Below the pieces are notes generated by a model. The model had not been told where the DNA came from. It searched no databases and worked only from the letters and a program-made list of their open reading frames with translations. A program made the translations under genes and the position numbers. From the NCBI GenBank assembly GCA_045630515.1, contig JAZQTG010000076.1, positions 354,299 through 418,298 of the forward strand: DNA of 64,000 nucleotides. Direction: 5' to 3'. Positions 14,171 to 57,895 of the stretch are shown piece by piece. Positions within the stretch are counted from its first letter, which is position 1, and each line of letters opens with the position of its first letter. Source of the stretch: Acutalibacteraceae bacterium (GTDB lineage Bacteria > Bacillota > Clostridia > Oscillospirales > Acutalibacteraceae).

Positions 14171-14521
14171 GGGGATGCAATGGTTTCGACAGGAGCGTTG
14201 AAGCAAGGGAAGCGAGTAGCGGTGCGGTACCGCTTAAAAAGCCGCAAATTTTTAAAAAATAAACGACAACAATAAAGTTGCTCTTGCTGCTTAATTTATA
14301 GCAGCCGTCCTTATTAGAAGTACCGCGGTCTTTTAAGGGCGCCGATTAGCGGTGAACGTGCGCATCGGACCGTTTCAACCGATGCCATGAATCAGAAACT
14401 ACCGTAACTGCGAGCCTGACATTCGGCGTGCAGTGAGGGGAATCTTAATAGACTGTCTGCACTCGGAGAAGCCTTTCGGAAATACTTTTGGACGCGGGTT
14501 CAATTCCCGCCATCTCCACCA
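14171..14521 (+). ncRNA. ssrA: tmRNA (transfer-messenger RNA)
   Basis: 5' GGGGATG pairs with 3' CATCTCC-A-CCA. tRNA-like T arm GCGGGTTCAATTCCCGC. The internal tag frame ends AAC GAC AAC AAT AAA GTT GCT CTT GCT GCT TAA (..NDNNKVALAA*) at 14262-14294. Confidence 0.95.
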
Positions 14522-19990: not shown

Positions 19991-20023
19991 AAAACGGTAG
20001 CAAGTTTTATTTGCTACCGTTTT
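19991..20023 (-). terminator. Terminator of the Fe-S protein operon
   Basis: aaaacggtagca / tgctaccgtttt hairpin 8 nt after the stop at 20031. Confidence 0.75.
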
Positions 20024-20030
20024 ATACTTT

Positions 20031-20966
20031 TTATTTAAAGTCGTCTATTTTGAAGCGCCACTCTTCCCTTTTTCTAAACGGAGTTTTAAACTTCTTTTGT
20101 AGTTTACCTTGCTCTTCCAAATGAATATAGCAAGCCACATCGCATGCCCTACCACAAATTGAGCACTGATAAGCGTGCTGTGCCGGTGGATAGAAATAAA
20201 TATTATCTAAAATTTTCCTAGCCGTTTCAGGATCCACCTTTGCCTCGCCGCTGATAATTTTCAAGCGATTCTCAAAATCTTCAAATGCTTCGGGAGGCAT
20301 AAATGGGTTTTTTGTACCGTTTGCACCATTATAATAAACGGTACATTGCCAAGGGTCAACCTCTCCGTTAGTGTTTATAGCCTTGCCCGGACAAGCGTTA
20401 GCACACTTACCACAACCATCGCAAAGATGAGGTTCTACCATATCTGTTGGCTCAATTTCTGCATCTGTTAATATAAAGCAATACCTTACCATAGGACCAA
20501 AATCATCAGTTAAAAGGGTGTTATGAAAACCTTTTTCACCAAGTCCGCATTTAATAGCAGCATCCAAAAAGTCCATTTGTACTTCTTGTGATTTGTCTCT
20601 ATATACCGAATCGTATGCAACTTCAGGATTATTACTGTTTTTCTCTGCCATTATTTGTTGATGGCGACGTTGCGGCAACGCAATAAACCCCTCTTCTTCA
20701 ATTAAGTTTGCAACCCTGATACTTGCCATTGGCATAATAGTTTCTTCCATATTTTCAACGCCCATGGTGGTATATTGATAATATGTACTACCTTCTTCTA
20801 TACCACGATAAGCACCGCGAAGCACACGAAAGCCCAGTCCGATAACGGTTTTAGTTTCGGGCATTATTTTAAATATAGCATCATCTTTAGAAAAACGTGA
20901 AGCGGGTGCAAAACCTACTATATCTGCGCTGCATTTTTTTGCTAGTTCAATTATTCTATTTTTCAT
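20031..20966 (-). CDS. QueG/reductive-dehalogenase-like 4Fe-4S protein, paralog 3 (cytoplasmic)
   Basis: N-terminus LAKKCSADIVGFAPASRF, CGLGEKGFHNTLLTDDFGPMVRYCFILTDAEIEP, ferredoxin motif CDGCGKCANACPG, second Cys group W.C...CSICGRACDVAC. No Tat or signal peptide. Confidence 0.7.
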   Translation of the reverse strand: MKNRIIELAKKCSADIVGFAPASRFSKDDAIFKIMPETKTVIGLGFRVLRGAYRGIEEGSTYYQYTTMGVENMEETIMPMASIRVANLIEEEGFIALPQRRHQQIMAEKNSNNPEVAYDSVYRDKSQEVQMDFLDAAIKCGLGEKGFHNTLLTDDFGPMVRYCFILTDAEIEPTDMVEPHLCDGCGKCANACPGKAINTNGEVDPWQCTVYYNGANGTKNPFMPPEAFEDFENRLKIISGEAKVDPETARKILDNIYFYPPAQHAYQCSICGRACDVACYIHLEEQGKLQKKFKTPFRKREEWRFKIDDFK

Positions 20967-20967
20967 T

Positions 20968-21861
20968 TTATAGCTCTCCTATCAAATGCTTATAGCAGGC
21001 AATATCGCACTTTTTACCGCAAAGGCAAGGCGAATAACCCCACTGGGTGTTAGGTAAAAAATTCAATTGTTTATAGATTTCTCTAGCACTCGCACTGTCA
21101 AAACGCTTTTCGCCGTTTAAAATCTGCTCACGTTCGGGGTGCCCTTTTAAAAACTCATCAGTAATGAAAGGATTAGATTTATGCGCACCCTTATAGTATA
21201 CACTACACTGCCAGGTATCAAGCCCATTATCACTAATAGCGTTACCTGGGCAAGCCGTTTTGCATAAACCGCATTTATCGCAAATAGGTTCTTTTATAGG
21301 CTCATCATACTCTAATTCGGCATCTGTAATAATAAAGCAATAGCGCATAAACGGACCATATTTTTTGTTTATGATTTTACCGTTAAGACCTGCCTCACCA
21401 AGACCGCAAGCCTTAGCCGCTTTTGAAAAATCAATAATAACATCGGGTGTAGGTTTACCCTCGGCAACAGGCACAGCGTGTATAAGTTCGTATGTATCAA
21501 CAACTTCTGGATTAGTTTCTTTATCGCCTTTTATTCTAAGGTTTGGAACCGATTTTTGAAGGCAAGCATCATAACCAAAATTCTCAATAAATCCACCTAT
21601 TTTAAGAAGAAAGATTTCTGCTAATTCTTCATCTTCATACTTAACGCCAAGACTGGTATATGCATAATACTGATTTCCGTTATCCATAGCCTTATATAAG
21701 CCTTTTGGCACGGCAAATCCAAAACCTATAATGCTTTTTGCTTTTGGCAAAATCATTTTTGGGTCGCGACCTTTATTGTCTTCTTCGTAAACTCTACCAA
21801 TGCCGCAAAGTGTAGCACCTAGTTCACGTGCTTTGTTTTTAATCAATTCACTTGTTAACAC
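20968..21861 (-). CDS. QueG/reductive-dehalogenase-like 4Fe-4S protein, paralog 2 (cytoplasmic)
   Basis: ARELGATLCGIG, ILPKAKSIIGFGFAVPKG (as in the QueG N-terminus), CGLGEAGLNGKIINKKYGPFMRYCFIITDAELEYD, CDKCGLCKTACPG, CLCGKKCDIAC. Confidence 0.7.
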   Translation of the reverse strand: MLTSELIKNKARELGATLCGIGRVYEEDNKGRDPKMILPKAKSIIGFGFAVPKGLYKAMDNGNQYYAYTSLGVKYEDEELAEIFLLKIGGFIENFGYDACLQKSVPNLRIKGDKETNPEVVDTYELIHAVPVAEGKPTPDVIIDFSKAAKACGLGEAGLNGKIINKKYGPFMRYCFIITDAELEYDEPIKEPICDKCGLCKTACPGNAISDNGLDTWQCSVYYKGAHKSNPFITDEFLKGHPEREQILNGEKRFDSASAREIYKQLNFLPNTQWGYSPCLCGKKCDIACYKHLIGEL

Positions 21862-21873
21862 CTTTGCTGCCCC

Positions 21874-22953
21874 CTATCTGTCAAGTTTCCAAGGCTTGCC
21901 TGTGCGAAGTGGGTTTTTAAACCTATCTTCCATACAGCCGCCTTTTTTCTCTAGCATTGAAACACAGCCTCGGATACAACCGCCGCATTTTGCCATGTTA
22001 TAACCAACCCAACTTGGAAAATACTTCTGCAATGCGGTGTAGACCTTAACAACCTCAGTTTCGTCGGCAACATCTGTTACGCCTTCTAACAAATCAAGGG
22101 ATCCGTTTTCGTTCTTATCAAAAACATCCTTTGGAACGAACGGATTATAGTATCTGCCCGCATGGGTATAAAAAGCATAACAGCGCCACATATCTATATC
22201 GCCCCACTCACAAATCTTGCCTGCTAAATCAACAGTAAGTTTTTTATCAGAATTAATTGGAGGAATGCATCCGCCAGGGCACTCACGAACACAAGCGCCA
22301 CATTTACGGCAAAGAGGCTCGCCATTATACATCTCATCGTACTCAAGCTCTGCATCGGTAAATAAGAACGCTACCCTTTGCAACGGTCCAAAATCTTTAG
22401 TAAGTAGCATCTTACTCCAACCGATTTCACCAAGACCGCAAGCGACTGCTGCTAATCTGAACTGAAACTGCAAGTCAGGTGCAACGTTTATGTCTCTGGT
22501 TGCTCTGGTAAACTCAACACTGCGGTGATGAGCAGTTGCATTTTTAACCTGGTCGTTTGCCTCTATTTGCTCTTCGGGAGAAAGCGTACTTCCCTCTCTA
22601 CCATCCATATCCGAAACAGAACCACGCGCACCGGTGTTACGGTATACAAATGCTTCGTAACCTTCGTCCTCAATAAGTTTACCTACGTTATATAAAACTG
22701 CAGGTGCAAAAATTTCGTTAATACCGCCATATGCCATGGAAGGATATTGGAAGAACTGCGTACCCTCTTCAATACCCCGTTGAACACCACGTGGAATTCT
22801 GAAGACAAATCCAATTACACTTTTCGCCTCAGGGAAAAGGAACTGTGGATTCATATCATCAGGCGCACCGTCAAAACGTGACATTGGACCGATGCCACAC
22901 ATATCAGCACCCGCCGCTAAGGCTGCCTCTTTAATCATTTTTGATGTTAACAT
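21874..22953 (-). CDS. QueG/reductive-dehalogenase-like 4Fe-4S protein, paralog 1 (with internal insertion)
   Basis: ALAAGADMCGIG, CGLGEIGWSKMLLTKDFGPLQRVAFLFTDAELEYD, CRKCGACVRECPG, CGGCIRGC. It carries an extra hydrophilic segment of about 55 aa absent from the two paralogs. Confidence 0.7.
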   Translation of the reverse strand: MLTSKMIKEAALAAGADMCGIGPMSRFDGAPDDMNPQFLFPEAKSVIGFVFRIPRGVQRGIEEGTQFFQYPSMAYGGINEIFAPAVLYNVGKLIEDEGYEAFVYRNTGARGSVSDMDGREGSTLSPEEQIEANDQVKNATAHHRSVEFTRATRDINVAPDLQFQFRLAAVACGLGEIGWSKMLLTKDFGPLQRVAFLFTDAELEYDEMYNGEPLCRKCGACVRECPGGCIPPINSDKKLTVDLAGKICEWGDIDMWRCYAFYTHAGRYYNPFVPKDVFDKNENGSLDLLEGVTDVADETEVVKVYTALQKYFPSWVGYNMAKCGGCIRGCVSMLEKKGGCMEDRFKNPLRTGKPWKLDR

Positions 22954-22980
22954 ATTATTATCCCCTTTTTAAGTGTAGAA

Positions 22981-23922
22981 CTATGACCACTTTTCTTCAA
23001 TATTAACAAGCGTTAATGGTTCACCATTTTGCAAAGCATACGGATATATGCTATGCTGCGGCTCTAAAATATCTAATATATTACCCGAAAATTTGCCTCT
23101 TACATAACTTTCTACTACTGCAATAGGATTTCTATGTACCCTTGTTGCAAGTTTTATAGCTTTATATATGCCATTATATTTTTCGGTATCTTCAGGTCTT
23201 ATGAAATTTGTGTAGTTAATAAGTTTATTGTAATTTTTTGGATTGCTTAAAAACTCTTTACACATACCGCTAAAGTTATAAGCATTATCCATTTTTGAAA
23301 TTTCGTCTTCGTGGGCTACCAGATTATCGTGAAAAATGTGTGCAGAGCAATAGTTCAGACAACCGCTATTTCCAAGACCATAAAGTTCTTTTCCATTATC
23401 TTCTGCCCAGTTTTTTAAATTTAGAAGAGCGTTAATATCCCTATTAAGTTCGCGTCTTACATAAAAACTATCAAAATATTCAGCCAAATACTCCATGCCC
23501 TCTATGGTCCCAATCTCCATATTTACAGAGGCGCGCACCTCAATATCACTAAAGTTGTTTTTTGTGAATTTAGCAATAAGTGGAGACGTTGTTGTTATAG
23601 AATTAAGATTATAATTTGTTCTTACATAATCCATAGCCATACCAACGCTATTAAAGAAACTGCGAGATTGAGCATCCTTGCCATAGCAATTTGCATTAAA
23701 TAATATATTGAAAGCAATTCCGCCTTGGTTAAGTTTTTTTAGCGTTTCTAACTGTTTTGCCTGCATTTCCCAAGGAGTTATATTCTCATTAAGCAGTTGA
23801 TTACTTCTACCATTAGCAAAACTACTAAAAGAAAAATAAACCTCGTATATGCTATCGGCATTATTTAAAATACAATCAGTTAAACGATTATTGTTAAAAT
23901 TCAAACCTACCATATATTTCAT
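22981..23922 (-). CDS. Distant peptidase-U32-like TIM-barrel protein (first gene of the operon)
   Basis: Recognised by eye only, through loose collinearity with U32 proteins (YhbU/UbiU class): FNILFNAN, VRASVNMEIGT..., YVRRELNRD, ELYGLGNSGCLNYCS, IKLATRVHRNP. I chose the ATG at 23922, behind ggggtga. Confidence 0.45.
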   Translation of the reverse strand: MKYMVGLNFNNNRLTDCILNNADSIYEVYFSFSSFANGRSNQLLNENITPWEMQAKQLETLKKLNQGGIAFNILFNANCYGKDAQSRSFFNSVGMAMDYVRTNYNLNSITTTSPLIAKFTKNNFSDIEVRASVNMEIGTIEGMEYLAEYFDSFYVRRELNRDINALLNLKNWAEDNGKELYGLGNSGCLNYCSAHIFHDNLVAHEDEISKMDNAYNFSGMCKEFLSNPKNYNKLINYTNFIRPEDTEKYNGIYKAIKLATRVHRNPIAVVESYVRGKFSGNILDILEPQHSIYPYALQNGEPLTLVNIEEKWS

Positions 23923-24032
23923 GCTATCACCCCACATAACTTTATATATTGATTTTATCACTTTCTTCTGCTATTATTAAGAGAGAAATCAAACATAAAA
24001 TATAACAAAACAAACATTTTAGGGGTTGTAGT

Positions 24033-24875
24033 ATGACTATTGCTGAAATCAATCCATTTATTAGGTTTGCAGACCTTGTAAAATACCAAACCAGTAGTGG
24101 TAAGGTTTATGTTCGCGACTGCAGAATCTTCTATATATCTGCAGGTTGTGCCGAAATAACTATTGATAACCAACATTACAAGCTATCGGAAGACAGTATG
24201 TTTTATTGTCAAAATGGTAGCGTTTATGAAATTTCATCAACCAATGGCGCTGACATCCTTGCAATCAACTTTGACCTAACGCAAGAAAACAAAGACCAAA
24301 AAGATAGTTTTCTTCCTCAAATGTACAACGATTCAACAGCTAAAATGTTGCAACACGATATATCCGACAGTCCTTTTTTAAAAGGCTTTTTATACATACC
24401 TAACGGTAGTTTTTATAAATCAAAAATAAAGGCAATTATTACTGAGTTTCAGTCTTTAAGAATTTTAAGCAGAGAAAAAACCAGTAGCATGTTAAAAACC
24501 CTTATCTGCGAAATACACCAAAACTCAGGCAAAAAGTTTTCAACGGCTTACAAAACGATTAATAAAATTTTAGACTACATAAATCACAACCTTAATTTGC
24601 CTATTACCAATAACGAACTGGCAATTTTAGCAAACTACCATGAATATCACCTTAATAGGTTATTTTTACAAACTACAGGATTAAGTATACACCAATACAT
24701 CATTAAGCAACGAATTGAAGAAGCAAAACGATTACTGCAAAGCACCGAATTATCAGTTAGCGAAATATCAGAACAGGTTGGTTTCCAAACAAATGCATAC
24801 TTTTCCAGATACTTTAAAGAATCTACTAACTACACCCCATTACAATACAGAAAAACCTTTAAATCTTTTATTTAA
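24033..24875 (+). CDS. AraC-family transcriptional regulator (cupin sensor plus HTH)
   Basis: C-terminal double HTH_AraC (LAILANYHEYHLNRLF...GLSIHQYIIKQRIEEAKRLL...VSEISEQVGFQTNAYFSRYFK). Transcribed divergently from the U32-like operon. Confidence 0.85.
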   Translation: MTIAEINPFIRFADLVKYQTSSGKVYVRDCRIFYISAGCAEITIDNQHYKLSEDSMFYCQNGSVYEISSTNGADILAINFDLTQENKDQKDSFLPQMYNDSTAKMLQHDISDSPFLKGFLYIPNGSFYKSKIKAIITEFQSLRILSREKTSSMLKTLICEIHQNSGKKFSTAYKTINKILDYINHNLNLPITNNELAILANYHEYHLNRLFLQTTGLSIHQYIIKQRIEEAKRLLQSTELSVSEISEQVGFQTNAYFSRYFKESTNYTPLQYRKTFKSFI

Positions 24876-24993: not shown

Positions 24994-26574
24994 ATGAACA
25001 CTTCTGCGAAACTTCAAAGTTTAATTGATAATCTTAATGACGGAGAAATTCTAAACCTTAACGGTGAAGACTTTTATTTAGATAAACAGATTACAATAGC
25101 GAACAAAAAAGGAATTGTTATTGACGGTGGCGGTACACAGATTATAACAAAATTTGTAAATTCTGCCGAATATTCTAAAAGTGTTGATGCATTTTTAATT
25201 GTGGGTTGCGAAGATATAACTCTTAAAAATATATATTTAGATACTGATGTTCCTACAAATGTTACCGCAACAGTTAAAGAAATTTTAACCGAGCAAAAGG
25301 CATTAATTTTAGAAGTAGACGACGTCTACAAAATAAACGGTAATGAAATACTAATGTCTTTTAACGCCATTGACGAAGAAGGCACCCCTTATCGTTTTGG
25401 ATACTACCAAAAACATCCCGATAAAAATATAATCACAGTTGTTCAAAACGAAGTTTTAGCGGCAAACACATATTGGACCGCTAAATACGACTATCTTGGT
25501 AACAACTGCTTTAAAGTTTACTTTGAACTGGATTCTTTCGGCAAATTAGAGATTGGCGATAGAATTTGTATTCGCCACACAATGTATGGTCCTAGCACTA
25601 TTGTTATTAGAGATAGTAACAACACTACCCTTAAAGATATCACAATGTATGCTACTCCCGGTATGGGTATAATGGTATTTCCCAGATGCAGAAATTTAAC
25701 CTTTGATGGAATTAAAATGGTTAAAAAAGATGGTAGTCATTCCCTAATGGCGTGCAACTGCGACGGAATACATTTAACAGGTGCAATGGGCAAGTTAATT
25801 ATGAAAAACTGCGAGTTTGACGGTATGGGCGATGATGCGCTAAATATACACACTATAGCTGCCACTTGTACTGATGTTGATTCGGTTAATAAAAAGATTA
25901 AATGTAACTACTGCAAGAAAAGTCCCGATGGCCCTTTGAAAGAAAACTGGTGCATAAAGGGTGATACTATTAAGGTTTTTGACCCATTATCAATGCAACA
26001 TATGGGAACATTCCAAGTAGTTGATTACAAAGACGGACATATAATTTACGAGAATTTACAAGGTGTCTTGGAACCTTCTTACATTATGCAAAACTACACC
26101 TTAACTGTTTCTTGCGAGATAACTGATTGCGAAATAAAAAACACACGTTCACGCGGTTTTGTTATTCAAACCGACAATGTAGAGATTAAAAACTCAAGAT
26201 TCTTCGGTTTGTCAAACTGCGCCGTTAAGGTTGCTTGTTGCTTTAGTTATTGGTACGAAGTTGGCCCTGCAACAAACTTTTATATGCACGACAATATTAT
26301 TGAAAAATGCGCTTATATTGATGTTAATTCCCCTGGAATTGGCGTTTTTACAAGGCATGATGGTAACAATGAAAAGGTTACCGGATTACACAAAAACATA
26401 AAAATAATAAACAATACCTTTAAGCGTATGAAAAACAATATGATTACAATTTCTTCCTCTGATAATGTTGAAGTTTGCGGTAATAAATTTATTTCCAGAG
26501 ATGAAAAAGAAATACCTCCTGTTAAATTTATTAGTTGCAACAACATTACTCAAAAGGACAACCAAGATATTTAA
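24994..26574 (+). CDS. Right-handed parallel beta-helix protein, GH28-like, without signal peptide
   Basis: Pectate-lyase-fold N-terminus (LNLNGEDFYLDKQITI..GIVIDGGG). Repeats carry NCDGIHLTG and GMGDDALNIH, which resemble the GH28 NTDG / GDDC motifs. Own promoter TTGACT-17-TAAAAT upstream. Confidence 0.6.
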   Translation: MNTSAKLQSLIDNLNDGEILNLNGEDFYLDKQITIANKKGIVIDGGGTQIITKFVNSAEYSKSVDAFLIVGCEDITLKNIYLDTDVPTNVTATVKEILTEQKALILEVDDVYKINGNEILMSFNAIDEEGTPYRFGYYQKHPDKNIITVVQNEVLAANTYWTAKYDYLGNNCFKVYFELDSFGKLEIGDRICIRHTMYGPSTIVIRDSNNTTLKDITMYATPGMGIMVFPRCRNLTFDGIKMVKKDGSHSLMACNCDGIHLTGAMGKLIMKNCEFDGMGDDALNIHTIAATCTDVDSVNKKIKCNYCKKSPDGPLKENWCIKGDTIKVFDPLSMQHMGTFQVVDYKDGHIIYENLQGVLEPSYIMQNYTLTVSCEITDCEIKNTRSRGFVIQTDNVEIKNSRFFGLSNCAVKVACCFSYWYEVGPATNFYMHDNIIEKCAYIDVNSPGIGVFTRHDGNNEKVTGLHKNIKIINNTFKRMKNNMITISSSDNVEVCGNKFISRDEKEIPPVKFISCNNITQKDNQDI

Positions 26575-51673: not shown

Positions 51674-51807
51674 AAAAAACAACCCGCCGAAAGAAAGCGG
51701 GTTGAAAACTATCCTCATCTTTCGGATTAACCGCAGGATTTGGCACCTTGCTAAAAAGCAGGTTGCCGGGCGTCTTAGGGCCTGTTCCCTCAGCCACTCT
51801 TGATAAG
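51674..51807 (-). promoter_or_regulatory. SAM-I (S-box) riboswitch with terminator, leader of metK
   Basis: The minus strand reads CTTATCAAGAGTGGCTGAGGGAACAGGCCCTAAGACGCCCGGCAACC...GGTGCCAAATCCTGC...AGATGAG, then the hairpin caacccgc/gcgggttg plus T7. Confidence 0.92.
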
Positions 51808-51869
51808 CGGATTATTTAATTTGCATTTATTATATTAACACATTTTATTGATTTGTCAAGCGGAAAAAT

Positions 51870-52546: not shown

Positions 52547-52728
52547 CAAAAAAATAAAGCCCCACAAAAACAGTGGGGCTAAAATACTACAAAATGTTAA
52601 TACCATCCGGACTGTACCGTCGGCTTTGGAATTACACCAAATCAACCACCAAAAGTGGCTCGCGGGCTTGTCTTGAAACTTCAAGATTCACCGCCGGTTA
52701 GGGAATTGCACCCTACCCCAAAACAATA
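52547..52728 (-). promoter_or_regulatory. FMN riboswitch (RFN element) with terminator
   Basis: The minus strand reads GGGGTAGGGTGCAATTCCCTAACCGGCGGT...AGCCCGCGAGCC...GGTGGTTGATTTGGTGTAATTCCAAAGCCGACGGTACAGTCCGGATGG, then the hairpin agccccac/gtggggct plus a T-run. Confidence 0.92.
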
Positions 52729-52759
52729 TTTAATTACAAAAACATTATACTACCGATAT

Positions 52760-57672: not shown

Positions 57673-57685
57673 TAACACAAATCTT

Positions 57686-57895
57686 GATAGAGGCGCGTTG
57701 TGTATAAGTAACGGCAGATTTATGCGGTAACGGTTTGCCAAGAAAGGACACATCGCCGAAACTTTAGTGCTACCCCGCAGTTGCACTTTGGTTGGGACGG
57801 TGCAAAACATGTACCGTACTGTCACGCAATGTGGAGGGCTATCGCATATCTCACCTTTTTAGCATGGTAACCACCAGATTGTGTGTTATCATGCT
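57686..57895 (+). promoter_or_regulatory. Lysine riboswitch (L-box) with terminator
   Basis: GATAGAGGCGCG...AAGTAAC...GAAAGGACACATCGCCGAAA...TTGGG...ACTGTCAC...TGGAGGGCTATC, then the agcatg/catgct hairpin plus a T-run. Confidence 0.9.

What the first reader, a model, noticed from the sequence alone, without database searches (positions are those of the whole stretch)
20031..23922. Operon of a U32-like protein and three tandem diverged QueG/reductive-dehalogenase-like Fe-S paralogs: candidate undescribed anaerobic redox system
Four minus-strand genes are separated by only 27, 12 and 1 nt and end at one terminator (19991-20023).

The last three (359, 297 and 311 aa) are paralogs. They share:
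- an N-terminus A..LGAD.CGIG...F;
- the KAKSVIGF.F..PRG block, as in the QueG N-terminus;
- RG.EEG..(F/Y)(F/Y)QY (paralogs 1 and 3);
- CGLGE.G.....LT..FGP..R..F..TDAE.E.D;
- one ferredoxin CxxCxxCxxxCPG motif;
- D.W.C..YY...;
- a C-terminal CxxCxxxC-type cysteine group.

This core is characteristic of the cobalamin and double-[4Fe-4S] superfamily of epoxyqueuosine reductase QueG and reductive dehalogenase RdhA. However, none has a Tat or signal peptide, an RdhB anchor gene or the QueG HEAT tail. Two end in a shared basic tail (FKTPFRKREEWRFK and FKNPLRTGKPWKL).

The first gene resembles peptidase-U32 TIM-barrel proteins. Characterised members of that family (UbiU/UbiV, TrhP, RlhA) are Fe-S dependent, O2-independent hydroxylases.

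I know of no described pathway with three sequential QueG/RdhA-like proteins plus a U32-like protein. The arrangement suggests either a hetero-oligomeric reductase or a multi-step reductive tailoring or dehydroxylation of a small molecule.
Basis: partly seen in the sequence, partly recalled or inferred. Interest (0 to 1): 0.85.

Follow-up and report, generated by a model that had tools for sequence, protein, structure and literature searches.

The report
Uncharacterised gut-Clostridia Fe-S reductase operon
A tightly packed four-gene operon encoding one U32-like iron-sulfur barrel protein and three different QueG/reductive-dehalogenase-like proteins is real, is conserved next to an AraC regulator in hundreds of gut Clostridia genomes, and matches no enzyme system I could find described, so it is probably a new anaerobic reductase that acts on a sugar-derived compound.

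Summary
Four minus-strand genes lie at 20031-23922, with gaps of 27, 12 and 1 nt and one terminator hairpin.

- **g2-g4:** These are genuine paralogs (BLAST E 2e-44 to 7e-65). Their only significant fold matches are QueG, PceA and NpRdhA. All keep eight Cys for two [4Fe-4S] clusters, but they score far below the RdhA and QueG family cut-offs. They have no Tat signal, membrane anchor or tRNA-binding tail.
- **g1:** It has no direct Pfam hit. Its model matches the U32 protein Mk0906 best (E 4.5e-9), relatives reach Pfam Peptidase_U32, and it has four invariant Cys.
- **Conservation:** The block AraC | g1 g2 g3 g4 recurs in about 73 of the 80 best loci, all gut Clostridia MAGs. dN/dS is 0.014-0.031.
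- **Wider pattern:** A more distant lineage keeps the same order. A simpler 1:1 pair of RDH-like and U32-like genes exists elsewhere.
- **Context:** Optional neighbours point to sugar or cyclitol catabolism. They include a cupin, GH129-like or GH110-like alpha-galactosidase-type hydrolases, GFO/IDH/MocA dehydrogenases and a PflD-like glycyl radical enzyme.
- **Literature:** Seven searches found no description.

My best reading is a substrate-induced cytoplasmic reductase of a new architecture. Corrinoid use and the substrate are unproven.

The parts
24033..24875 (+). Divergent AraC-family regulator with a cupin-like N-terminal sensor half and a C-terminal HTH_18; the putative substrate-responsive activator of the operon
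   Evidence: Pfam HTH_18 2.7e-22 and HTH_AraC 1.2e-13. An AraC gene sits divergently upstream of g1 in about 74 related loci.
23923..24032 (.). 110-nt divergent intergenic region between AraC and g1, presumed to hold both promoters and the AraC operator
   Evidence: Sequence read. It contains only weak sigma-70-like matches and no Rfam element. Its function is inferred from position only.
22981..23922 (-). g1: U32-like TIM-barrel protein (313 aa) with four invariant Cys (C79, C188, C192, C221), a candidate [4Fe-4S] site
   Evidence: AF2 pLDDT 87. The best PDB fold match is U32 protein Mk0906 (5d88), E 4.5e-9, TM 0.67 on the target. 19 of 52 distant relatives hit PF01136, and one is above the gathering score. 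Invariant Cys. g1 has no direct Pfam, NCBIfam or PDB sequence hit.
21874..22953 (-). g2: QueG/RdhA-fold protein (359 aa) with two [4Fe-4S] motifs and a basic C-terminal tail; the most conserved gene of the block
   Evidence: NCBIfam RDH 2.4e-9 and QueG 1.8e-6, both far below cut-off. It is 78-87% identical in most of the 80 genome loci (59% in the chimeric L006), where g1 is about 52-64% (88% only in L005) and AraC 25-44% (66% only in L005). dN/dS is 0.014. It carries 9 family-invariant Cys.
20968..21861 (-). g3: QueG/RdhA-fold protein (297 aa) with two [4Fe-4S] motifs and no basic tail in this genome
   Evidence: NCBIfam RDH 1.1e-15 and QueG 1.8e-12, below cut-off. Its orthologs are conserved. 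dN/dS is 0.026.
20031..20966 (-). g4: QueG/RdhA-fold protein (311 aa) with two [4Fe-4S] motifs and a basic C-terminal tail
   Evidence: AF2 pLDDT 78. All 46 Foldseek matches with E <= 0.001 are QueG (best 2.8e-9), PceA-type RdhA or NpRdhA. The profile scores 3.5e-13 against PceA and 5.9e-11 against QueG. C182/185/188/192/208 have the same spacing as QueG C188/191/194/198/214.
19991..20023 (-). Intrinsic-terminator-like hairpin closing the operon
   Evidence: 15-bp stem with a 3-nt loop, found 8 nt after the g4 stop codon.
24994..26574 (+). Possible accessory gene: a cytoplasmic GH110-like beta-helix protein (alpha-1,3-galactosidase family) downstream of AraC
   Evidence: PDB sequence hits to GH110 alpha-1,3-galactosidases (8pvs 4.4e-21, 9i4f, 9beh). 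Pfam Beta_helix. Only the closest relative L005 keeps it beside the block, so the link is weak.

Best explanation
This is a substrate-inducible, cytoplasmic, oxygen-sensitive reductase module of gut Clostridia, built from a U32-like Fe-S TIM-barrel protein (g1) and three non-redundant QueG/RdhA-fold proteins (g2, g3, g4).

**Shown**
- Each of g2-g4 keeps the eight Cys that ligate the two-[4Fe-4S] electron wire in QueG and RdhA, and each has the QueG/RdhA core fold.
- g1 has a U32-type barrel with four invariant Cys.
- The four genes plus a divergent AraC regulator form one unit that is conserved and strongly constrained.
- U32-like and RDH-like genes are also paired 1:1 in other anaerobes.

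**Inferred**
- AraC senses a small molecule and switches the operon on.
- Low-potential electrons from ferredoxin or flavodoxin (no donor is encoded in the block) pass through the cluster pairs to a base-off corrinoid or equivalent site.
- That site carries out two-electron reductive elimination of a leaving group, most likely oxygen-based (epoxide, hydroxyl or ether) as in QueG rather than a halide.
- g1 binds or prepares the substrate.
- The three paralogs act either as one hetero-oligomer with g1 or on three positions or steps of the same molecule.
- The substrate is probably a sugar-derived or cyclitol-like compound released in the cytoplasm from an alpha-galactoside-type conjugate.
For: **Fold and cofactor sites**
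- Nine Cys are invariant across all orthologs of all three paralogs. The spacing of the first five equals that of the QueG ligands given in PMC5175355.
- The U32 link for g1 rests. U32 proteins are [4Fe-4S] enzymes (PMC6747719).

**Conservation**
- The block AraC | g1 g2 g3 g4 is present in about 73 of 80 loci from Oscillospiraceae, Acutalibacteraceae, Lachnospiraceae and others. It is also present in the distant locus L086.
- Divergence within a locus is uneven, which argues for constraint rather than recent transfer. g2 is about 85% identical, g1 about 60% and AraC about 40%. dN/dS is 0.014-0.031.
- 37 alignment columns are conserved within each paralog but differ between them, so the paralogs are not redundant.

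**Partnership**
- 1:1 RDH-like + U32-like pairs occur in L090 and in L094-L096, L099 and L100.

**Catabolic, carbohydrate-type context**
- The regulators are AraC, IclR and LacI types.
- A cupin lies between g2 and g3 in 37 loci. A GH129-like DUF5696 protein is present in 29 loci, and GFO/IDH/MocA genes in more than 20.
- A PflD/YbiW-like glycyl radical enzyme with its activase lies next to the block in four lineages. PflD and YbiW are sugar C-O lyases (PMC13450708).
- A GH110-like gene is present in this window.
- In L036, g1 sits with DUF5696 and GFO genes and no RDH-like genes at all.

**Cytoplasmic location:** There is no signal peptide and no TM segment.
Against: - **No cofactor measured:** Corrinoid binding has no sequence signature and cannot be tested here. 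The same fold family also includes CblC.
- **Possible other cofactor:** In a few lineages a radical SAM/SPASM gene closest to 'metallocofactor maturase' models sits inside the operon. This could mean a different cofactor.
- **Active site not mapped:** hhalign and the topology-based alignment disagree on the register N-terminal of the CGLGE motif. The QueG DYH motif is absent.
- **Variable accessory genes:** None of the carbohydrate genes is universal, and in this window only the GH110-like gene is nearby.
- **No expression, genetic or biochemical data:** All related genomes in the 80 loci are uncultured MAGs.
- **Stoichiometry untested:** No multimer prediction was available.
Confidence: 0.5

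Rival explanations
1. It is a catabolic organohalide dehalogenase system: cytoplasmic RdhA-like enzymes that remove halogens from dietary or host-derived halogenated compounds, with three paralogs for different positions.
For: The best sequence hits of g2-g4 are to RDH TIGR02486 and PceA. Cytoplasmic, non-respiratory RdhA enzymes exist, for example NpRdhA, which is among the fold matches.
Against: Scores are 37-58 bits against a cut-off of 160. There is no Tat signal, RdhB or fused reductase module. The block is conserved in wild herbivore and Hadza human gut MAGs and sits with sugar-type genes, not aromatic or halide-handling genes. The fold search ranks QueG above the RdhA enzymes.
Confidence: 0.1
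2. It is an RNA-modification system. Both parent families contain tRNA or rRNA modifiers (QueG; TrhP and RlhA), so the operon could install or reduce a modified nucleoside.
For: QueG is the top fold match for g4. Characterised U32 proteins include tRNA and rRNA hydroxylases (PMC6599085, listed; also cited in PMC6747719).
Against: g2-g4 lack the QueG C-terminal helical-repeat RNA-binding domain and DUF1730. The unit is tied to AraC, IclR or LacI regulators and to glycosidase, dehydrogenase, transporter and glycyl-radical genes. The wider genomic distribution was not surveyed, but none of the loci examined places the block with translation or RNA-modification genes, as would be expected of a housekeeping modifier.
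Confidence: 0.07
3. The QueG/RdhA-fold proteins are not corrinoid enzymes here. They serve as Fe-S electron-transfer or maturation subunits for the U32-like protein, which is the true catalyst, for example an O2-independent hydroxylase or dehydratase acting on a sugar.
For: g1 occurs with DUF5696 and GFO genes but without any RDH-like gene in L036. Relatives of g1 occur in unrelated contexts with YcaO, with a glycosyltransferase, or as tandem U32-like genes. U32 proteins are catalytic Fe-S hydroxylases. A metallocofactor-maturase-like rSAM gene appears in some operons.
Against: g2-g4 are more conserved than g1. They retain the whole N-terminal cofactor-binding domain, not just the ferredoxin part. 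Each paralog has its own set of conserved polar residues, which is unusual for simple electron carriers.
Confidence: 0.2
4. It is a corrinoid-processing or salvage system: CblC-like removal or exchange of upper ligands, or remodelling of dietary cobamides.
For: CblC and CblD share the cobalamin-binding fold and appear as weak fold matches (E 0.06-0.2).
Against: Those matches are about seven orders of magnitude weaker than the QueG and RdhA matches. CblC lacks the ferredoxin domain (PMC4646009), which g2-g4 keep. There is no cobalamin riboswitch or B12 transport gene near the block in the window. The gene context is carbohydrate-like.
Confidence: 0.04

Closest known systems
Epoxyqueuosine reductase QueG (class III cobalamin enzyme; PDB 5d08, 5t8y, 5d6s)
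   Same: It is the best fold match (E 2.8e-9). It shares the nitroreductase-like N-domain plus ferredoxin domain. The eight Cys ligands are present, with identical spacing for the first five. The [AC]G[LI]G core motif is shared, as G-I-G in QueG and CGLGE in g2-g4. It is cytoplasmic and soluble. Its chemistry, reductive removal of oxygen from a carbocyclic polyol, would suit a sugar or cyclitol substrate.
   Different: g2-g4 score 27-47 bits against a cut-off of 200. They have no DUF1730 hit, no HEAT-like RNA-binding tail and no DYH motif. A 60-residue insertion, versus 26 in QueG, separates the fifth Cys from the last three. There are three paralogs in an AraC-controlled operon with a U32-like gene, whereas QueG acts alone as a monomer (PMC5175355).
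Reductive dehalogenases RdhA (PceA 4uqu and 8q4h; catabolic NpRdhA 4ras and 6zxx)
   Same: These are the best sequence hits over the core CGLGE...CxxCxxCxxxCP region, and they share the fold and redox chain. NpRdhA shows that cytoplasmic catabolic members exist.
   Different: Scores are below the family cut-off. There is no Tat signal, RdhB anchor or fused NAD(P)H reductase module. The proteins are much shorter (297-359 aa against about 460-700), and the gene context is not an organohalide one.
UbiU/UbiV, TrhP and RlhA (peptidase-U32 family Fe-S, O2-independent hydroxylases) and the U32 structure Mk0906 (5d88)
   Same: g1 has the U32-type barrel, it reaches PF01136 through its relatives, and it has four invariant Cys, as most U32 families do. 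Like UbiU/UbiV, it works with a partner protein.
   Different: g1 itself has no PF01136 hit. Its Cys spacing (C-x108-C-x3-C-x28-C) differs from the CX6CX15CX3/4C pattern and from the UbiV and UbiU patterns. Its partners are QueG/RdhA-fold proteins, not a second U32 protein. Nothing links it to prephenate.
PflD/YbiW 'anhydroglycolysis' glycyl radical enzymes and GFO/IDH/MocA sugar or inositol dehydrogenase clusters
   Same: In four lineages the block lies next to a PflD-like GRE, its activase and GFO/IDH/MocA genes. This suggests a shared substrate class of unusual sugars, anhydro-sugars or cyclitols.
   Different: These are neighbours, not homologs. They are absent from this window and from most loci.

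Membership tests
Reductive dehalogenase RdhA (TIGR02486) | Whole-protein score at or above the curated family cut-off (160.35 bits) | tested here: not met
   g2 scores 37.5 bits, g3 58.3 and g4 50.9. Only residues about 118-264 match.
Reductive dehalogenase RdhA (TIGR02486) | Twin-arginine (Tat) signal and an adjacent RdhB membrane anchor (respiratory type), or a fused reductase module (catabolic type) | tested here: not met
   No RR motif in the first 30 residues and no hydrophobic segment. The block contains no small membrane-protein gene. There are no extra domains.
Reductive dehalogenase RdhA (TIGR02486) | Two [4Fe-4S] binding motifs following the corrinoid-binding core | tested here: met
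   CxxCxxCxxxCP plus C...C-x(2-3)-C-x3-C is invariant in all orthologs of g2, g3 and g4.
Reductive dehalogenase RdhA (TIGR02486) | Bound corrinoid and dehalogenating activity | not testable with these tools
   Needs purified protein.
Epoxyqueuosine reductase QueG (TIGR00276) | Whole-protein score at or above the curated cut-off (200 bits) | tested here: not met
   g2 scores 27.2 bits, g3 46.9 and g4 39.4.
Epoxyqueuosine reductase QueG (TIGR00276) | N-terminal DUF1730 (PF08331) and a C-terminal helical-repeat tRNA-binding domain | tested here: not met
   Pfam gives no PF08331 or HEAT hit at E <= 0.1. The proteins end 20-30 residues after the last Cys. QueG fragments do carry PF08331.
Epoxyqueuosine reductase QueG (TIGR00276) | Catalytic D-Y-H motif and the Asp134 loop (VDTG) | tested here: inconclusive
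   There is no DYH or VDTG string. By topology, the invariant Tyr (g2 Y70, g3 Y68, g4 Y65) could be the class III Tyr, and g2 Y104, g3 Q102 and g4 Q99 could occupy the Asp134 position. hhalign gives a different register.
Epoxyqueuosine reductase QueG (TIGR00276) | Eight Cys ligands for proximal and distal [4Fe-4S] clusters | tested here: met
   g4 C182/185/188/192/208 align with QueG C188/191/194/198/214 at identical spacing. Three more Cys (C271/275/279) follow a longer insertion.
Class III cobalamin / double [4Fe-4S] superfamily (QueG + RdhA fold) | Nitroreductase-like cofactor domain followed by a ferredoxin domain, recognisable by fold | tested here: met
   All 46 Foldseek PDB matches with E <= 0.001 are QueG, PceA-type RdhA or NpRdhA. 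hhalign gives probability 97.4 and E 1.2e-11 against QueG.
Class III cobalamin / double [4Fe-4S] superfamily (QueG + RdhA fold) | [quoted passage not shown] | not testable with these tools
Peptidase U32 family (PF01136; UbiU/UbiV, TrhP, RlhA) | Match to PF01136 at or above the gathering score | tested here: not met
   g1 has no hit even at E <= 1. Relatives do: 19 of 52 hit it, and P0381 scores 25.3 bits against a gathering score of 22.4. P0381 matches g1 at E 5.9e-22.
Peptidase U32 family (PF01136; UbiU/UbiV, TrhP, RlhA) | U32-type TIM-barrel fold | tested here: met
   5d88 (Mk0906) is the top hit at E 4.5e-9. That is more than 10,000-fold better than the next TIM barrel.
Peptidase U32 family (PF01136; UbiU/UbiV, TrhP, RlhA) | Four conserved Cys binding a [4Fe-4S] cluster (CX6CX15CX3/4C or variants) | tested here: inconclusive
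   Four Cys are invariant (C79, C188, C192, C221), and all four are invariant or nearly so in the wider clade. Their spacing differs from every published U32 pattern. Their spatial clustering could not be measured.

The most novel reading that the evidence does not exclude
The U32-like and QueG/RdhA-like proteins form an obligate two-family enzyme, 1:1 in many anaerobes and 1:3 in gut Clostridia. It would be a new kind of corrinoid/Fe-S (or new-cofactor) reductase that removes oxygen functions from sugars or cyclitols without O2. That would be a previously unrecognised route of anaerobic carbohydrate deoxygenation in the gut, and the first hetero-oligomeric class III B12 enzyme.
Probability: 0.25. 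Interest if true: 0.85.

Novelty: new variant of a known kind. Interest (0 to 1): 0.72.

Why it matters
- **A third branch of a small superfamily:** Class III B12 enzymes have only two characterised activities, dehalogenation and epoxyqueuosine reduction. This would be a widespread third branch with a fixed U32-like partner and a three-paralog architecture, which would widen both the chemistry and the quaternary organisation known for the superfamily.
- **A new role for U32 proteins:** Their mechanism is still largely open, and this gives them a new functional context.
- **Relevance to the gut:** The operon is present in many uncultured Clostridia of humans and herbivores and has no annotation. 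Solving it could explain an unassigned microbial transformation of dietary or host glycoconjugates, and could add a new B12-dependent trait to models of cobamide sharing in the gut.

Tried and rejected
- **Direct searches with g1:** Pfam, NCBIfam and PDB sequence searches, and the family profile against PDB, all found nothing. Only the fold search and transitive hits gave the U32 link.
- **Literature:** I searched for QueG-like and RdhA-like homologs, U32 with dehalogenase or QueG, DUF5696, and class III cobalamin enzymes. None described this operon.
- **Riboswitch control:** Rfam finds nothing near the operon, so riboswitch control, including B12, is rejected for this window.
- **Recent horizontal transfer as the cause of the high g2 identity:** Rejected, because g1 and AraC in the same loci are much more diverged.
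- **Mapping the QueG active site:** The last homolog search, seeded with a QueG fragment, returned only fragments. They allowed a partial profile (A6), but the register N-terminal of CGLGE stayed ambiguous, so the catalytic-residue mapping is reported as inconclusive.
- **Structure measurements:** Model coordinates are not exposed to scripts. Cys-Cys distances in g1 and the corrin pocket in g4 could not be measured.
- **Complex prediction:** None was available.
- **Window neighbours considered and dropped:** FtsK, YgiQ radical SAM, DUF421, a GDSL lipase and an HTH_3 gene are not conserved with the block.

Full report
**1. The observation**

g1 is 22981-23922, g2 is 21874-22953, g3 is 20968-21861 and g4 is 20031-20966. 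The gaps are 27, 12 and 1 nt. Each start is preceded by a purine-rich ribosome-binding stretch. A 15-bp hairpin at 19991-20023 follows g4.

g2, g3 and g4 are true paralogs. Pairwise BLAST gives E 2e-44 to 7e-65 at 31-38% identity over almost their whole length. None of the four proteins has a twin-arginine motif or a hydrophobic segment. Pfam finds only ferredoxin-type motifs in g2-g4 and nothing in g1.

**2. What g2-g4 are**

- NCBIfam gives partial, sub-threshold matches to reductive dehalogenase (37-58 bits against a cut-off of 160) and to QueG (27-47 bits against 200). The matches are confined to the CGLGE...CxxCxxCxxxCP core.
- PDB sequence and profile searches hit PceA (3.5e-13) and QueG (5.9e-11) over the same core. 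There are also weak collinear matches at the N-terminus.
- An AlphaFold2 model of g4 (pLDDT 78) matches only QueG (best 2.8e-9), PceA-type RdhA and NpRdhA at E <= 0.001. CblC and CblD follow about seven orders of magnitude behind.
- A profile-profile comparison with QueG fragments gives probability 97.4 and E 1.2e-11.
- Across ortholog sets taken from 80 genomes, 40 columns are identical in all three paralogs, including nine Cys.
- g4 C182/185/188/192/208 have the same spacing as QueG C188/191/194/198/214. Together with three later Cys, those QueG residues ligate the distal and proximal [4Fe-4S] clusters (PMC5175355). g2-g4 supply the last three Cys after a longer insertion.

So the two-cluster electron wire is conserved in all three proteins. 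They are members of the class III superfamily, but not of the RdhA or QueG families.

**3. What g1 is**

g1 has no hit in Pfam, NCBIfam or PDB, whether searched as a sequence or as a profile. Its model (pLDDT 87) is a beta/alpha barrel. Its best PDB match is the U32 protein Mk0906 (5d88; E 4.5e-9, TM 0.67 on the target). The next TIM barrels are more than 10,000-fold weaker.

An exhaustive HMMER search found 711 cluster representatives. Of 52 full-length relatives, 19 hit Pfam Peptidase_U32. One of them, P0381, related to g1 at E 5.9e-22, exceeds the gathering score.

g1 has four invariant Cys: C79, C188, C192 and C221. They are invariant or nearly so in the wider clade too. Most U32 families have four conserved Cys that bind a [4Fe-4S] cluster (PMC6747719), but the spacing in g1 differs from the published patterns. 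The 'U32-like' call is therefore supported, as a divergent branch.

**4. Conservation**

- The word-indexed search found 4380 g1 homologs and 2519 g4 homologs. Of the listed ones that carry a name, all but one JGI entry are called hypothetical; that entry (P0235) is labelled epoxyqueuosine reductase QueG.
- A scan of GTDB species-representative genomes gave at least 562 confirmed stretches. The 80 best are all gut Clostridia MAGs: Acutalibacteraceae, Oscillospiraceae, Lachnospiraceae, Acetatifactor, Faecalimonas and others. They come from humans, deer, goats, buffalo and rabbits.
- The nearest relative is an Acutalibacteraceae MAG, L005.
- In about 73 of the 80 loci the order is AraC (divergent), g1, g2, g3, g4. 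Most exceptions are contig ends.
- Typical identity to the window is uneven within a locus: g2 about 80-87%, g3 and g4 about 60-81%, g1 about 52-64% and AraC about 25-44%; L005 and the chimeric L006 fall outside these ranges. This argues for differential constraint, not recent transfer.
- dN/dS against L005 is 0.014 for g2, 0.026 for g3, 0.026 for g4 and 0.031 for g1.
- 37 columns are conserved within each paralog but differ between them, so the three are not redundant.
- A much more distant locus, L086 (g1 37% identical), has the same g1-g2-g3-g4 order.

**5. A more general partnership**

In L090 and L091 the canonical block (with a cupin) lies beside a second module. That module holds one RDH-like gene (36% identical to g2), one U32-like gene (40% to g1), a GFO/IDH/MocA dehydrogenase, a glycyl-radical activase and a 737-aa glycyl radical enzyme.

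The same RDH-like/U32-like pair recurs in environmental metagenome contigs next to IclR, LacI or GFO genes. The pairing of the two families is therefore the basic unit. The 1:3 form is the gut-Clostridia elaboration.

Still more distant g1 relatives occur with YcaO, with glycosyltransferases, or as tandem U32-like genes. The wider clade is functionally mixed.

**6. Context and likely substrate class**

Accessory genes inside or beside the block in other genomes:

| Accessory gene | Where found |
|---|---|
| 107-aa cupin between g2 and g3 | 37 loci |
| DUF5696 protein related to GH129 alpha-N-acetylgalactosaminidase (6e-15) and to a 3,6-anhydro-D-galactosidase | 29 loci |
| GFO/IDH/MocA dehydrogenases, closest (sub-threshold) to inositol, levoglucosan or glycoside 3-dehydrogenases | more than 20 loci |
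| Xylose-isomerase-like barrel | L080 |
| EamA and YgjV transporters | a few loci |
| Radical SAM/SPASM protein closest to 'metallocofactor maturase' models | a few loci |
| GRE closest to PflD, YbiW and glycerol dehydratase | four lineages |

PflD and YbiW are sugar C-O lyases (PMC13450708). In this window the gene beyond AraC is a GH110-like alpha-1,3-galactosidase homolog without a signal peptide. In L036, g1 sits with DUF5696, an esterase, GFO and AraC, and with no RDH-like gene.

All of this points to inducible cytoplasmic catabolism of a sugar-derived or cyclitol-like compound, possibly released from an alpha-galactoside-type conjugate. None of these accessory genes is universal, so this is an inference of moderate strength.

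**7. Mechanism**

Shown:
- the folds;
- the cluster ligands;
- the operon structure;
- the conservation;
- the partnership between the two families.

Inferred:
- AraC induction by the substrate;
- electron entry from ferredoxin or flavodoxin, since no donor is encoded in the block;
- transfer through two clusters per subunit to a base-off corrinoid or equivalent site;
- two-electron reductive elimination of an oxygen-based leaving group, by analogy with QueG;
- g1 as the substrate-binding or activating partner.

Whether g2-g4 form one complex or act in sequence is open. The exceptional conservation of g2 and the shared C-terminal F.P.R....W tails of g2 and g4 lean towards a complex.

By topology, using the AF2 secondary structure against the QueG motif order, three tentative mappings follow:
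- The invariant Tyr (g2 Y70, g3 Y68, g4 Y65) may be the class III Tyr described in PMC4646009.
- The QueG Asp134 / RdhA Asn272 position may be Tyr in g2 and Gln in g3 and g4.
- Only g2 keeps an Arg at the QueG Arg141 position.

hhalign gives another register in this region, so this mapping is unverified.

**8. Comparison and novelty**

The closest known systems are QueG, RdhA (including catabolic NpRdhA) and the U32 Fe-S hydroxylases UbiU/UbiV. The proteins fail the membership tests for RdhA, for QueG and, in the case of g1 itself, for PF01136. They pass the fold-level tests.

No paper in the searchable library links U32 proteins with QueG/RdhA-like proteins or describes this operon. I class it as a new variant of a known kind: class III-type reductases in a new multi-paralog architecture with a U32-like partner. 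Interest is 0.72. It is a robust, widespread, unannotated system in a mechanistically interesting superfamily, but no function has been demonstrated.

Noticed in passing
L090:5479-11582 (also L091): A second module lies beside the canonical block. It holds one RDH-like gene (360 aa), one U32-like gene (342 aa, with an extra C-terminal Cys-rich motif), a GFO/IDH/MocA gene, a glycyl-radical activase and a 737-aa PflD-like glycyl radical enzyme, under its own AraC regulators.
   Followed up: partly
L006:8942-9973: A single 343-aa gene whose N-terminal half is g2-like and whose C-terminal half is g4-like, joined at the shared CGLGE motif, with g3 missing. It is either a real recombination between paralogs or a MAG assembly collapse.
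   Followed up: no
L036:7929-12834: A g1 ortholog (about 60% identical) is followed by DUF5696, an esterase, a GFO/IDH/MocA gene and AraC, with no RDH-like genes. So g1 can occur without its usual partners.
   Followed up: no
L087:78-3707: A distant g1-like gene directly follows a YcaO gene. Upstream is a 95-aa ORF ending in a Cys-rich tail (…SCYGNGTFCCREVMG) that looks like a RiPP precursor. This suggests some U32-like proteins modify peptides.
   Followed up: no
L088:1-2001: Two tandem U32-like genes of this clade, both with the C-terminal CxxxCxxCxYC motif, are reminiscent of the UbiU/UbiV heterodimer arrangement.
   Followed up: no
L046:2099-3034, L065:8927-10003, L082:1329-2324, L017:5932-6918: A radical SAM/SPASM gene sits between g1 and g2, or just upstream. 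It is closest (235-252 bits, below the 380 cut-off) to the NCBIfam model 'tungsten cofactor oxidoreductase radical SAM maturase'. This hints at a special cofactor or maturation step in some lineages.
   Followed up: partly
L086:2430-4522: In this distant locus g3 and the N-terminus of g4 are read as one 461-aa ORF followed by a 239-aa remainder. This is probably a frameshift or sequencing error. A URO-D family gene and a PAS regulator lie downstream.
   Followed up: no
L077:10052-11130: In a complete MAG chromosome (CP091729.1) g2 is matched in two adjacent pieces, suggesting a frameshifted or disrupted copy.
   Followed up: no
window 24994-26574: A cytoplasmic GH110-like (alpha-1,3-galactosidase family) beta-helix protein lies next to the AraC gene. 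Only the closest relative (L005) shares it.
   Followed up: partly
window 14171-14521; 51712-51809; 52591-52729; 57680-57849: A tmRNA gene and SAM, FMN and lysine riboswitches were found elsewhere in the window. They are ordinary and unrelated to the finding.
   Followed up: no
window 23937 / 23961 vs 23922: The database copy of g1 (P0001, 318 aa) starts 5 codons upstream of the ATG used here, and the ORF can extend to a GTG at 23961. Homolog N-termini (MKF.VG…) and the GGGGTG stretch favour the ATG at 23922.
   Followed up: partly
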